Source: a virus
Lineage: Duplodnaviria; Heunggongvirae; Uroviricota; Caudoviricetes
IMG/VR virus record: IMGVR_UViG_2671180804_000003
Span: 1-43,036 of that record
Reading direction: 5' to 3' (one strand)
DNA: 43,036 bases
Of this stretch, positions 34,265-36,923 are shown piece after piece (the first letter of the stretch is position 1; each line of letters starts with the position of its first letter). The position numbers and the translations under genes were made by a program. The notes beneath the pieces were generated by a model. The model did no database searches. It was given only the letters and a program-made list of their open reading frames with translations, and had not been told where the DNA came from.

Positions 34265-34295
34265 GTGTTCTCCTATGACTAAGCCTGCATCAATA

Positions 34296-34308
34296 CTACT
34301 TATAGTAG
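34296..34308. promoter_or_regulatory. Operator-like inverted repeat CTACT-TAT-AGTAG in cro/cI divergent promoter region
   Basis: Located between Cro-like start (34264) and cI-like start (34334); shares half-site with 35169 site. Confidence 0.45.
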
Positions 34309-34333
34309 CAATTATTAGCAACTTAAAATAGAA

Positions 34334-35053
34334 ATGACAACTATGCCTTGTGCGCTTAATCTTCTACTTATGGTGGAAAATGCTAAATACAAAGACTTTG
34401 CCGAAAGGCTAAACAGGTCTCTCCAAGAGCAATCTATTGGAGTTAAAGAATTGTCAGAGTTCAGTGGTGTCTCGTATGAGATGGCGCGGCGCTACACTCT
34501 TGGTACTGCAAAGCCGAGAGATGAGAAGATGATTCGAATTGCAGAAAGACTTGCCGTCTCACCGGCTTATCTTGATTATGGTGTGCCTGTTAATGGTGGC
34601 GACGCGCCAGCCAAAGGCACGGTCAGAATAGAGCAATTGGATGTTCATGCTTCAGCCGGTTCCGGATATATAAACCAACCATTCCCTACAATAGTGAGCT
34701 CAATAGAGATTCCAGAAGAGAGGATCTTCGAGTTGTTTGGTCGTAGAAGCCTTGATGGCATCGTCATGATAAATGTTGATGGCGATAGCATGATGCCCAC
34801 GCTTTGCCCAAAGGACCTGCTTTTCATAGACAGCAAGGTTGAACAATTCAGCGGCGACGGCGTTTATGTGTTCAATTTTGAAGACAGTACGTTCGTTAAA
34901 CGTTTGCAGAAGGTAAAAGGGCGCCGACTGGCAGTTCTTTCAGACAATGAACATTACCCGCCCTTCTTCATAGAGGAGCATGAAATGAATGAACTATACA
35001 TATTCGGCAAGCTAATCAGATGCTTACCTCTAAAAATGATAGAGTTTGGCTAA
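34334..35053 (+). CDS. CI-like repressor (XRE HTH plus S24 LexA-type autopeptidase domain)
   Basis: N-terminal HTH; C-terminal GDSMMPTL and FVKRL (Ser/Lys dyad); no SD upstream, consistent with a leaderless start. Confidence 0.85.
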   Translation: MTTMPCALNLLLMVENAKYKDFAERLNRSLQEQSIGVKELSEFSGVSYEMARRYTLGTAKPRDEKMIRIAERLAVSPAYLDYGVPVNGGDAPAKGTVRIEQLDVHASAGSGYINQPFPTIVSSIEIPEERIFELFGRRSLDGIVMINVDGDSMMPTLCPKDLLFIDSKVEQFSGDGVYVFNFEDSTFVKRLQKVKGRRLAVLSDNEHYPPFFIEEHEMNELYIFGKLIRCLPLKMIEFG

Positions 35054-35070
35054 TAATTAATTCATCAAGA

Positions 35071-35094
35071 AACCGGCGAAAGCCGGTTTTTTTT
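35071..35094 (+). terminator. Rho-independent terminator after cI-like gene
   Basis: AACCGGC-GAAA-GCCGGTT followed by T8. Confidence 0.65.
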
Positions 35095-35168
35095 ACGCCT
35101 CCAATTCCTCACCTCATAACACTACACTACTAAAAATTTCATTTTCTACTTTTTGTTGTTGCAATTAT

Positions 35169-35181
35169 CTACTTAAAGTAG
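35169..35181. promoter_or_regulatory. Operator-like perfect palindrome CTACTTAAAGTAG (OL-like)
   Basis: 6-1-6 inverted repeat upstream of the plus-strand early operon. Confidence 0.45.
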
Positions 35182-35297
35182 CTATAGTCATTGCATCGAA
35201 AGCGAACAGGCAGGACGCCCACGAAGTAGCCGCCGGTGGCATATGAATAACCGGATGATTCGCTGACAGAAAACTTAGGTTGGGGGTAGAGGTTTAC

Positions 35298-35663
35298 ATG
35301 AATCATTTATTCACATGCTCATTTTGCGGAGCAACCGAACTGGGAGCGATAAAGATCGTCGCAAAAGGTGGTAAGGACGAACCTGCCATCTGTTCGGAAT
35401 GCGTAGTCACATGTGTAGAAAAAATGATCCTGACTAAAAAATCAGAGGCTGAAAAACCAACCTCTGATAACGAAATAATATCAGTCGATAAAAAACTATT
35501 TAAAGAGCTTCTTCAGCTTGTCCTCAACCTTCCTGATTTCGGAAGTAAGCTGGCTGCTGTTGACATTGATAGTAGCTCCACATCGACAAGTGAAACTTTT
35601 GTTCGACTTGAGCCAAGCGATTTTCTTCTTCGTCTTAGTGCCGCACTTAGGGCATGCGGGTAA
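35298..35663 (+). CDS. Small protein with ClpX-type zinc-binding-like N-terminus
   Basis: CSFCG-x19-CSEC resembles the ClpX N-terminal zinc-binding domain; AGAGGT 4 nt upstream of ATG. Confidence 0.45.
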   Translation: MNHLFTCSFCGATELGAIKIVAKGGKDEPAICSECVVTCVEKMILTKKSEAEKPTSDNEIISVDKKLFKELLQLVLNLPDFGSKLAAVDIDSSSTSTSETFVRLEPSDFLLRLSAALRACG

Positions 35664-35693
35664 CGTAATTTCCTGGTTATCAAAAGCGCCCAT
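35496..35693 (-). CDS. Small zinc-ribbon-like protein, antisense and overlapping the 3' half of 35298-35663
   Basis: CPKCG-x17-CRCG motif; AGAGGG 6 nt upstream of second ATG. Confidence 0.3.
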   Translation of the reverse strand: MGAFDNQEITLPACPKCGTKTKKKIAWLKSNKSFTCRCGATINVNSSQLTSEIRKVEDKLKKLFK

Positions 35694-36005
35694 AAACATC
35701 CCTCTTGGTTGTGTGAGAACACCAAGATACCACCGCGCCTGATGTGGTTAAAAGCAGGCTAAAGCAATAACAAGTAACTCCCTGTTCTGGCGGCCCGGTG
35801 TTTTCCCGTGTATTTCCGGTAACCGCCAGCCTTTTTCAGGGCACAACAGAAAAGGGCATCACCGGGCGACGGGCTCATAACCCAATCCACCCGGGCAAAA
35901 AGAAAGCGGTCTCTGCAAGCCGCCGACCAATGCAGGTGCCCTTCTCTGTTGTGTATGGAGAAACTAACTTTTTAGCGTCTGTGCAGATGCGCTGAGGAAC
36001 CGAGA

Positions 36006-36923
36006 ATGAATAATCCGTTTTTCAAAAATATGTTGGTGTATCGCATTAGTCGCGATTTCACCATCAACCAGGAAGAGCTGGAACAGCAGCTTGAACTATT
36101 TCGCTTCACTCCATGCGGTAGCCAGGATATGGCAAAAACCGGTTGGGTATCACCACTTGGTCAGCTGTCAGATCGCTTGCATCACACTGTCAATAATCAA
36201 GTGTTGTTGGTTATTCGCCGGGAAGAAAAAATACTGCCATCTCCTGTCATTACTGAAGAACTGCGCAAGCGTGTGTCGCGTCTGGAATCCGATCAGGGGC
36301 GTCGCCTCAAAAAAACTGAGAAAGATTCGCTGCGTGATGAAGTGTTGCACTCCCTGCTTCCTCGGGCGTTCTCCAAAAACTCGACTGTTGGTTTGTGGAT
36401 CAACGTCACCGACGGTCTGATCATGGTTGATGCAGCCAGCGCTAAACGTGCCGAAGACTCACTGGCCCTGCTTCGTAAAACTCTCGGTTCTCTCCCGGTG
36501 GTACCGCTGACTATGGAAACGCCGATCGAACTAACTATGACCGACTGGGTTCGTTCCGGTAGTGCGCCTGCTGGCTTTGGCCTGGGTGATGAAGCCGAAC
36601 TGAAAGCTATTCTTGAAGATGGCGGTATTGGACGCTTTAAAAAACAGACTCTGGTCAGTGACGAAATTCATGTGCATCTGGAAGCTGGCAAAGTAGTTAC
36701 AAAGCTGTCTATCGACTGGCAACAGCGCATTCAGTTCGTTCTTTGCGATGACGGCAGCATCAAACGCCTTAAGTTCTCTAATGAGATTACAGAACAAAAC
36801 GACGATATCGACCGTGAGGATGCGGCTCAGCGGTTCGACGCTGACTTTGTTCTGATGACCGGCGAGCTTATCTCTCTCATTAACGGATTAACAACCTCTC
36901 TCGGCGGCGAAGCCAAGCGATAA
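36006..36923 (+). CDS. rdgC: Recombination-associated protein RdgC homologue
   Basis: 305 aa collinear with E. coli RdgC throughout ([60 protein letters not shown]). Confidence 0.9.

What the first reader, a model, noticed from the sequence alone, without database searches (positions are those of the whole stretch)
35298..35693. Convergent, overlapping zinc-ribbon-like ORFs next to the repressor gene
Right after the cI terminator and the OL-like palindrome, a plus-strand ORF (121 aa) begins with a ClpX-type zinc-binding-like motif (CSFCG-x19-CSEC). Its 3' half is overlapped on the opposite strand by a 65-aa ORF with its own SD and a C-x2-C-x17-C-x-C zinc-ribbon motif. A 340-bp non-coding stretch lies downstream (35664-36005). 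Antisense-overlapping coding pairs are unusual; a ClpX-like domain next to an immunity region could relate to repressor or antirepressor turnover.
Basis: seen in the sequence. Interest (0 to 1): 0.6.

Follow-up and report, generated by a model that had tools for sequence, protein, structure and literature searches.

The report
Two proteins encoded on opposite strands
In an E. coli Nissle prophage, one 170-base stretch next to the repressor gene appears to encode two conserved proteins, one on each DNA strand: an unannotated small zinc-ribbon gene with its own promoter and terminator, and the tail of the first early-operon protein.

Summary
A 121-aa plus-strand ORF (35298-35663) and a 65-aa minus-strand ORF (35693-35496) overlap by 168 nt, codon for codon.

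The minus ORF is a real gene that RefSeq does not annotate:
- It is intact in all 51 related loci, with all four Cys invariant.
- It has its own Shine-Dalgarno site, a conserved ~95-nt promoter/5'UTR and a downstream hairpin.
- It belongs to an uncharacterised zinc-ribbon family of 331 clusters.

The plus frame also looks selected:
- It is open and stops at the same codon in every locus.
- It always starts at an SD+ATG, behind at least seven different N-terminal parts. The ClpX-like finger is only one of them.
- It shows third-position wobble in the 7 codons outside the overlap.
- It is more conserved than simulations with selection on the zinc-ribbon frame alone (p about 0.001-0.01).

Openness of the plus frame alone is not significant once codon usage is modelled.

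Most likely this is a mobile antisense cassette whose opposite strand has become the C-terminal domain of the first pL protein. Convergent transcription would make the two mutually exclusive. Neither protein's function is known, and the link to ClpX or repressor turnover is untested.

The parts
35067..35097 (+). Intrinsic terminator of the cI-like repressor gene (34334-35053)
   Evidence: Inverted repeat I5 (35067-77 / 35082-92) followed by a T run. The weak Rfam hits here are terminator look-alikes only.
35147..35188 (+). OL-like operators and pL-like promoter (TTGCAA 35159-64, 18-nt spacer, TATAGT 35183-88; palindrome CTACTTAAAGTAG 35169-81)
   Evidence: Promoter scan. Direct-repeat family D1 links these sites to the OR palindrome at 34294-34315. 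The function is inferred by analogy with lambda.
35298..35663 (+). Plus ORF, 121 aa (RefSeq WP_016240143, 'ClpX C4-type zinc finger protein'), the first ORF after the pL-like promoter
   Evidence: It matches phrog_20296 over its full length. SD GAGG lies at 35289-92.
35313..35420 (+). ClpX-type C4 zinc-finger-like segment (aa 6-41) of the plus ORF
   Evidence: Pfam PF06689 at 26.2 bits, cutoff 27. phrog_5259, a 70-position finger-only family, matches aa 1-56. The only PDB hits are ClpX N-domains, at E 0.15-1.
35478..35663 (+). C-terminal module of the plus ORF (aa 61-121, ISVDKKLFKELLQLVLNLPD...LLRLSAALRACG, plus stop). Apart from its first 6 codons it is encoded antisense to the zinc-ribbon gene.
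   Evidence: The module is found behind at least 7 different N-terminal parts, always in frame and with SD+ATG. The 7 codons just upstream of the overlap show plus-frame wobble (pairwise difference 0.28/0.26/0.62 at positions 1/2/3). It is more conserved than simulations with selection on the zinc-ribbon frame alone. There is a selection gradient among zinc-ribbon-synonymous changes.
35436..35468 (-). Hairpin plus U run about 30 nt after the zinc-ribbon stop, a terminator-like site lying inside the plus ORF's linker
   Evidence: Terminator scan: 12-bp stem, then TTTTT. Every lineage has a hairpin at the same place with a different sequence; the U run is present only in some.
35496..35693 (-). 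Unannotated zinc-ribbon gene, 65 aa (MGAFDNQEITLPACPKCG...CRCG...KLKKLFK) plus stop
   Evidence: It is intact in 51 loci (19 distinct CDS) with all 4 Cys invariant. The 10 N-terminal codons lie outside the plus ORF and show zinc-ribbon-frame periodicity. The family has 331 clusters. Simulations with selection on the plus frame alone never reproduce its conservation. AF2 gives pLDDT 75, a zinc ribbon plus a C-terminal helix.
35694..35795 (-). Conserved ~95-nt promoter/5'UTR cassette of the zinc-ribbon gene. It holds SD AAGAGGG (35700-06), an extended -10 TGgTATCTT (35732-35724), an inverted repeat ACCAC-N10-GTGGT (35729-48), and a CTTGG..CCAAG hairpin next to the SD.
   Evidence: Alignment of 14 upstream regions, including phage SfII, where the same cassette drives a different gene, SfII_36. 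The inverted repeat occurs once in the window. Promoter activity is inferred, not shown.

Best explanation
The locus holds a compact, horizontally mobile minus-strand cassette. It consists of an extended -10 promoter with a short 5'UTR, a 65-aa zinc-ribbon gene and a terminator hairpin, spanning roughly 35436-35795. The cassette sits antisense inside the first ORF transcribed from the repressor-controlled pL-like promoter.

The strand opposite the zinc-ribbon gene is not an idle shadow. Read codon for codon in antisense, it forms a ~60-aa C-terminal module. In every related phage this module is translated as the tail of whatever small protein comes first after pL. Here that protein is a ClpX-type zinc-finger protein. 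So the same ~170 bp encode two proteins, both under purifying selection. By the overlap class rates the ratio of nonsynonymous to synonymous change is about 0.16-0.20 for the zinc-ribbon frame and about 0.4-0.5 for the plus frame.

Inferred, not shown: the two transcripts converge and are fully complementary, so expression should be mutually exclusive. In a lysogen, with pL shut by the repressor, the zinc-ribbon gene would be expressed. After induction, pL transcription would run through the cassette, make the plus protein, and silence the zinc-ribbon gene by collision and RNA duplex formation.

The biochemical roles of both proteins are unknown. My best guess is a lysogen-expressed small nucleic-acid- or protein-binding factor and a lytic-phase partner or counter-domain that are co-inherited because they share DNA.
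For: Zinc-ribbon gene is real:
- It is intact with 4 invariant Cys in 51 loci and 19 distinct CDS, down to 63% identity.
- The SD, the ATG and 10 codons lie outside the plus ORF and vary mostly at the zinc-ribbon frame's third positions.
- It has 331 family clusters among 1.84 billion representatives, mostly stand-alone 62-76-aa proteins.
- The promoter/5'UTR is conserved and is shared with a different cargo gene in phage SfII.
- A hairpin with a different sequence in each lineage follows the stop.
- Simulations with selection on the plus frame alone never reproduce its conservation (P<0.0005).

Plus frame is selected:
- It is open and stops at the same codon in all loci, including those found with the zinc-ribbon protein as query. 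Zinc-ribbon Leu11 is only ever TTA or CTA.
- Every version has SD+ATG, and there are at least 7 N-terminal architectures in frame.
- Many zinc-ribbon synonymous sites are frozen in 19 of 19 sequences exactly where plus residues are invariant, for example T21 ACG, A13 GCA, and Lys fixed as AAG or AAA by column.
- The plus frame is more conserved than under zinc-ribbon-only selection: identity 0.683 against 0.62 +/- 0.02 (p 0.0005-0.005), and 11 invariant residues against about 5-6 expected (p about 0.005-0.01).
- Class rates run SS > SN > NS > NN.
- Among zinc-ribbon-synonymous changes, rates run plus-synonymous > conservative > radical (p 0.003-0.04).
- The 7 plus-only codons next to the overlap differ by 0.28/0.26/0.62 at positions 1/2/3.

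Orientation: the plus ORF always runs with the lytic operon, either after cI/pL or after the lysis genes, and the zinc-ribbon gene runs against it.
Against: - There is no expression data for either ORF.
- Openness of the plus frame is not significant by itself once phage codon usage is modelled (P 0.23-0.33).
- The simulations and class counts rest on parsimony over 19 related sequences and a simple model. The NN versus NS comparison is partly confounded by codon position.
- The AF2 model of the plus protein is poor (pLDDT 53), and the module has no relatives outside this clade.
- In the stand-alone versions the ~22 linker codons upstream of the module show no coding periodicity.
- In the closest non-enterobacterial relative of the zinc-ribbon gene the antisense frame has two stops. 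Dual coding is therefore clade-specific and could be young and weakly selected.
- The promoter and terminator are consensus-level predictions. The U run is missing in several lineages.
Confidence: 0.6

Rival explanations
1. Only the minus-strand zinc-ribbon cassette is functional. The C-terminal half of the plus ORF is a read-through 'shadow' of that gene. The first pL gene simply runs into the cassette and keeps going, because the codon-aligned antisense frame of a Lys-rich gene that uses few TTA/CTA/TCA codons rarely contains stops.
For: With phage codon usage, all 19 sequences stay open in 23-33% of simulations. The N-terminal parts are complete small-protein families that exist without the module (P0013, P0014; phrog_5259, phrog_1744). 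The AF2 model of the plus protein is poor. The antisense frame is also open in three distant, partly GC-rich relatives where only the zinc-ribbon gene is called. The linker shows no coding periodicity.
Against: The plus-frame amino-acid conservation exceeds the zinc-ribbon-only expectation (p 0.0005-0.01). Zinc-ribbon-synonymous changes are filtered by their effect on the plus protein. Third-position wobble appears in the 7 plus-only codons ISVDKK. The stop stays fixed at one TTA/CTA Leu codon (P about 0.05-0.09). All N-terminal architectures enter in the one open frame and have SD+ATG.
Confidence: 0.32
2. Only the annotated plus ORF is a gene, as RefSeq has it. The minus ORF is a chance antisense ORF.
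For: PGAP and almost all gene callers annotate only the plus ORF. The word-index search found just one cluster for the minus protein.
Against: A full HMMER scan finds 331 family clusters, mostly stand-alone called genes. In one relative the antisense frame is closed. The 4 Cys, SD, start codon and N-terminal codons outside the plus ORF are conserved. Simulations with selection on the plus frame alone never give the observed zinc-ribbon conservation. The gene has its own conserved promoter/5'UTR and hairpin.
Confidence: 0.03
3. The pair is a toxin-antitoxin-like module. The zinc-ribbon protein is a toxin or abortive-infection effector, and the pL transcript (type I-like antisense RNA) and/or the plus module (protein antidote) neutralises it.
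For: Full antisense complementarity, and a small size like the Rac prophage RalR/RalA system (from my own knowledge, not tested). Weak sub-threshold similarity to Lar/RalR-type and YnfU zinc ribbons. Distant relatives sit near restriction-modification and PIN genes.
Confidence: 0.1

Closest known systems
Prophage 'morons' (for example lambda bor; independent promoter-gene-terminator units inside phage operons)
   Same: A compact unit with its own predicted promoter, SD and hairpin terminator. It is oriented against the lytic operon. It is present in only some related phages (39 of 5426 E. coli genomes). It occupies a slot that carries other cargo in SfII, and in one group it sits after the lysis genes.
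   Different: The cassette does not lie between genes. It is embedded antisense inside a translated ORF, and its opposite strand is itself conserved as protein.
Antisense overlapping protein-coding genes reported in E. coli (for example ano, and the three antisense overlapping genes reported in EDL933; PMC5960689, PMC9927249)
   Same: A long antisense overlap of two ORFs, each with its own translation signals. One partner is missed by annotation.
   Different: Those cases rest on RNA-seq and Ribo-seq in one strain and are mostly young ORFs inside old genes. This case has no expression data. Instead, both frames are conserved across about 19 sequence variants and at least 7 architectures. Here the embedded, unannotated ORF is the older and better-conserved gene, and the annotated one is the overprint.
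ClpX N-terminal C4 zinc-binding domain (Pfam PF06689)
   Same: The CxxC...CxxC spacing and flanking residues (TCSFCG ... ICxECVxxC). The only PDB sequence hits are ClpX N-domains.
   Different: It scores just below the Pfam cutoff and has a 3-residue longer loop. There is no AAA+ body. It is a free 45-aa finger fused to an unrelated module, and it is interchangeable with other N-termini in sister phages.
YnfU-family and Lar/RalR-type small prophage zinc ribbons
   Same: Prophage proteins of about 55-65 aa with a CxxC-x(17-18)-CxC/CxxC ribbon. Weak profile similarity (NF038384 E 1e-5 to 3e-3; PF14354 E 0.004).
   Different: All scores are far below the curated cutoffs (16.9-24.9 bits against 36; 17.7 against 28.6). 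The conserved W27, the KTxK motif and the C-terminal amphipathic helix define a separate family.

Membership tests
ClpX C4-type zinc finger (PF06689) | Score at or above the Pfam gathering cutoff (27 bits) | tested here: not met
   26.2 bits, E 7.6e-6, aa 6-41. This is a narrow miss, and PGAP still uses the name.
ClpX C4-type zinc finger (PF06689) | Four Cys as CxxC ... CxxC with ClpX-like flanks | tested here: met
   C7, C10, C32, C35. The alignment to ClpX chains shows TCSFCG / IC-ECV--C. The loop is 3 residues longer than in E. coli ClpX.
ClpX C4-type zinc finger (PF06689) | Binds ClpX adaptors or substrates, or affects ClpXP proteolysis | not testable with these tools
YnfU family zinc-binding protein (NF038384) | Score at or above the NCBIfam cutoff (36 bits) | tested here: not met
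   16.9 bits for the window protein. The best family member reaches 24.9 bits.
Lar restriction alleviation (PF14354) | Score at or above the Pfam cutoff (28.6 bits) | tested here: not met
   17.7 bits, E 0.0043.
Moron (autonomous transcription unit in a prophage) | Own promoter and terminator flanking the gene | tested here: inconclusive
   An extended -10 is conserved in 14 upstream regions and a hairpin is present in all lineages. These are sequence predictions only, and several lineages lack a U run.
Moron (autonomous transcription unit in a prophage) | Patchy presence among otherwise related phages, with variable cargo at the same slot | tested here: met
   Present in 39 of 5426 E. coli genomes. 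The same promoter cassette carries a different gene in SfII. It occurs at two kinds of genomic position.
Antisense overlapping protein-coding gene pair | Both ORFs intact, with start signals, in all homologues | tested here: met
   The only exception is one locus with a frameshift that breaks both frames (L054).
Antisense overlapping protein-coding gene pair | Purifying selection detectable on each frame beyond what the other frame imposes | tested here: met
   Zinc-ribbon frame: P<0.0005. Plus frame: p 0.0005-0.01, plus the gradient and the wobble in plus-only codons. The model is simple, so the plus-frame result is moderate, not overwhelming.
Antisense overlapping protein-coding gene pair | Both products translated | not testable with these tools
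   This needs Ribo-seq, epitope tags or mass spectrometry.
Known anti-phage defence proteins (PADLOC-DB) | Match to any defence-system model | tested here: not met
   No hit for either protein at E<=0.01.

The most novel reading that the evidence does not exclude
The cassette is a mobile two-strand gene pair whose two products work on each other. One would be a lysogen-expressed zinc-ribbon effector. The other would be a lytic-phase partner or neutralising domain, written on the opposite strand of the same codons. The pair could then never be separated by recombination, and it could be plugged behind any first-early protein. That would be a new genetic architecture for a phage switch or self-immunity module, born by overprinting.
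Probability: 0.2. Interest if true: 0.85.

Novelty: new variant of a known kind. Interest (0 to 1): 0.62.

Why it matters
Antisense overlapping protein genes in bacteria and phages are still disputed, because most candidates rest on expression data from one strain. Here the evidence is comparative. Two frames on opposite strands are each conserved across many prophages, and the module is reused behind different proteins.

The case also shows a systematic annotation error. Gene callers keep the longer plus ORF and drop a member of a 331-cluster zinc-ribbon family.

The locus lies at the pL side of the immunity region of a prophage in the probiotic strain Nissle 1917. It could therefore bear on the lysogeny/lysis decision or on superinfection behaviour. 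It is directly testable with recoded alleles that knock out one frame while leaving the other silent.

Tried and rejected
- Rfam at a permissive threshold on 34900-36200 gave only terminator look-alikes.
- The word-index protein search with the minus protein found one cluster. This wrongly suggested an orphan until the full HMMER scan.
- The GTDB genome scan with the plus module found only 2 loci.
- A control gene for the class-rate analysis (rdgC, cI) was not usable, because homologues were either above 97% or below 40% identical. Simulations replaced it.
- Uniform-codon simulation made plus-frame openness look significant (P 0.0055). With phage codon usage it is not (0.23-0.33), so I do not rely on it.
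- The broad-family alignment was too diverse for a locus scan.
- The AF2 model of the plus protein was too poor to search with.
- PADLOC gave no hit for either window protein.
- The 'phage repressor pr' of Bury et al. 2018 (PMC5987069) was checked as a possible link. Its primers are not in this window.
- A lambda-N-like role for the first pL ORF was considered and dropped. No family search returned an N-like match. By eye I saw no arginine-rich motif.
- Extra scans for the L044 and L039 clades added almost nothing.

Full report
**Where we are.** The window is a lambdoid prophage of E. coli Nissle 1917 and is 100% identical to NZ_CP022686. A cI-like repressor (HTH + S24 peptidase) lies at 34334-35053 on the plus strand, and a cro-like gene diverges from it. 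The repressor gene ends in a hairpin terminator at 35067-35092. After it come operator-like palindromes that repeat the OR palindrome, together with a TTGCAA-18-TATAGT promoter-like site at 35159-35188. By analogy with lambda this is OL/pL. That assignment is inferred, not tested.

**The observation.** Both ORFs exist as described. The plus ORF (35298-35663, 121 aa, good SD) begins with CSFCG-x20-CSEC. Pfam zf-C4_ClpX scores 26.2 bits against a cutoff of 27. PGAP calls the protein 'ClpX C4-type zinc finger protein'. The only PDB sequence hits are ClpX N-domains, at weak E-values. The minus ORF runs from 35693 to 35499 with its stop at 35496-98 and encodes 65 aa. AAGAGGG lies 6 nt before the ATG. 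Its motif is C-x2-C-x18-C-x-C. RefSeq does not annotate it. The overlap is 168 nt and is codon-aligned, so plus position 3 pairs with minus position 1. A single antisense ORF of this size is not unusual by chance, so everything below rests on comparison.

**The minus ORF is a real gene.**
- I collected 51 related loci with 19 distinct coding sequences, down to 63% protein identity. They came from searches with the plus protein and, independently, with the minus protein.
- In all of them the 65-codon frame is intact and all four Cys are invariant. The start and stop are in the same place, and replacements are conservative. The exceptions are a frameshifted copy (L054) and one cut by a contig end (L055).
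- Its first 10 codons lie beyond the plus stop and vary mostly at its own third positions (pairwise difference 0.27/0.17/0.44 at positions 1/2/3).
- A full HMMER scan of 1.84 billion representatives finds 331 clusters at E<=1e-3. Most are stand-alone 62-76-aa proteins with the pattern FDxxxIxIPCPxCGxKTxKxIxWxKxNxxFxCxCG followed by a helix.
- The sources that name any family member call it 'hypothetical protein'. No Pfam, NCBIfam, PHROG or PADLOC model is met. The nearest named thing is YnfU, far below its cutoff.
- Simulations in which only the plus protein is selected never reproduce the observed zinc-ribbon conservation.

**It is a self-contained cassette.**
- About 95 nt upstream of the ATG are conserved in all contexts. 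They contain the SD, a CTTGG..CCAAG hairpin, an extended -10 (TGgTATCTT, 35732-35724) and an inverted repeat ACCAC-N10-GTGGT.
- The same upstream cassette drives an unrelated 63-aa gene, SfII_36, at the same place in phage SfII.
- About 30 nt after the stop every lineage has a hairpin of different sequence. In the window it is a canonical terminator at 35468-35436.
- Homology between contexts ends just outside these elements.
- The cassette is rare. It occurs in 39 of 5426 complete E. coli genomes, all at 99% identity or more, and in one phage record.
- It sits either right after cI/pL or, in one group, after the lysis genes. In both settings it is oriented against the lytic operon. This is the behaviour of a moron.

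**The plus frame is nevertheless also selected.** If the plus C-terminus were only a shadow of the cassette, I would expect stops, frame changes and free drift at sites that are synonymous in the zinc-ribbon frame. That is not what I see.
1. The plus frame is open through the whole cassette in every locus, including those retrieved with the zinc-ribbon protein. It always ends at the same codon, and zinc-ribbon Leu11 is only ever TTA or CTA.
2. Every plus ORF has an SD and an ATG. The module is fused in frame to at least seven different N-terminal parts:
   - the ClpX-like finger;
   - AlpA HTH, in two versions;
   - a P22_Y8K6 domain;
   - a complete phrog_1744 protein, and a longer variant of it;
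   - another 130-aa form;
   - two short stand-alone forms.
3. Many zinc-ribbon third positions are frozen in 19 of 19 sequences exactly where the plus residue is invariant. Examples are T21 ACG (plus Arg), A13 GCA (plus Cys), and Lys columns fixed as AAG (plus Leu) or AAA (plus Phe). Others toggle freely: C36, C38, N43, R37, G39, P15.
4. Parsimony class rates in the overlap run SS > SN > NS > NN. These are OLGenie-like ratios. They give roughly 0.16-0.20 for the zinc-ribbon frame and 0.4-0.5 for the plus frame.
5. Among zinc-ribbon-synonymous changes the rate falls from plus-synonymous to conservative to radical. For transitions the rates are 3.05, 1.46 and 1.02. For transversions they are 2.16, 0.85 and 0.37 (binomial p 0.003-0.04).
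6. Simulations with selection on the zinc-ribbon frame alone give plus identity of about 0.62-0.63 +/- 0.02, against 0.683 observed (p 0.0005-0.005). They give about 5-6 invariant plus residues against 11 observed (p about 0.005-0.01).
7. The seven plus codons just upstream of the overlap (I-S/T-V/I-D-K-x) lie in the zinc-ribbon gene's 3'UTR. They vary almost only at plus third positions (0.28/0.26/0.62).

**Caveats, stated plainly.**
- Openness of the plus frame alone is not significant once phage codon usage is modelled (P 0.23-0.33). My first uniform model overstated it (0.0055).
- The statistics use parsimony on 19 related sequences.
- The NN versus NS comparison is partly confounded by codon position.
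- The AF2 model of the plus protein is poor.
- The linker that contains the hairpin shows no coding periodicity.
- In the closest non-enterobacterial relative of the zinc-ribbon gene the antisense frame has two stops. Three more distant, partly GC-rich relatives have it open. Dual coding therefore seems specific to this enterobacterial clade and looks like an overprint on an older zinc-ribbon gene.
- No expression data were available.

**How it most likely works.**
- Shown by comparison: two conserved ORFs share about 170 bp on opposite strands, and the cassette has an autonomous architecture.
- Inferred: in the lysogen the repressor shuts pL and the zinc-ribbon gene is transcribed from its own promoter. 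After induction pL transcription reads through the cassette and yields the finger-plus-module protein. It also suppresses the zinc-ribbon gene by promoter occlusion, polymerase collision and duplex RNA.
- Guess: the two products act on each other or on the same target.

But it is only one of several interchangeable heads, and nothing here tests that idea.

**Verdict.** The zinc-ribbon gene is a real, unannotated gene (confidence about 0.95). Both frames are functional coding sequences with confidence about 0.6. The main rival, at about 0.3, is that the plus tail is a tolerated read-through. In kind this is a new variant of known things, namely morons and antisense overlapping genes. It is not a new category. 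Interest is moderate to high because it is a comparatively supported, experimentally separable case of two-strand coding at a phage switch.

Noticed in passing
window 35841-35955 (+), inside the 'non-coding' stretch upstream of rdgC: A long-range inverted repeat (35841-57 / 35938-54) closes a branched stem-loop; folding z-score is about -2.9 on either strand. Both arms are conserved in phages SfII and mEp460, where the centre is deleted. RNAalifold on 5 sequences gives 33 pairs, 4 of them with compensatory double changes. The 55-nt left arm (35842-35896) matches roughly 270 E. coli genomes and about 60 lambdoid phages (SfV, SfIV, cdtI, Stx2c phages) at around 90-94%. There is no Rfam family. 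It may be a cis-acting leader RNA, perhaps put-like antitermination, in phages with no N gene at this place.
   Followed up: partly
window 35729-35748: A perfect inverted repeat ACCAC-N10-GTGGT overlaps the predicted extended -10 of the zinc-ribbon promoter. It occurs only once in the window. A differently sequenced but similarly placed repeat is present in the divergent L039 version. It looks like an operator for an unknown regulator.
   Followed up: partly
L063 (phage SfII) 2133-2339 (+) and 2301-2492 (-): At the same slot, SfII carries a different minus-strand gene (SfII_36) behind the same promoter/5'UTR cassette. An unannotated 68-aa plus ORF converges on it with a 39-nt 3' overlap. The slot after pL seems to be a general landing site for antisense cargo.
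   Followed up: partly
window 36006-36923: A full-length RdgC homologue (Pfam E 2e-115) is the first large early-left gene of this prophage, and of several relatives (L005, L010). This is an unusual recombination-associated cargo for a lambdoid pL operon.
   Followed up: no
L044 2989-3273: A distant (43%) zinc-ribbon relative has a CxC first knuckle. It is also completely covered by an 83-aa antisense ORF that ends at the equivalent codon (...AAVAG*). Here it lies next to cro/cII-like genes rather than after cI. No further relatives were found to test selection.
   Followed up: partly
L054 3001-3194: One metagenomic copy (95% identical) has a 1-nt deletion that frameshifts both the zinc-ribbon ORF and the plus ORF. 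It is the only frameshifted copy seen among the loci.
   Followed up: no
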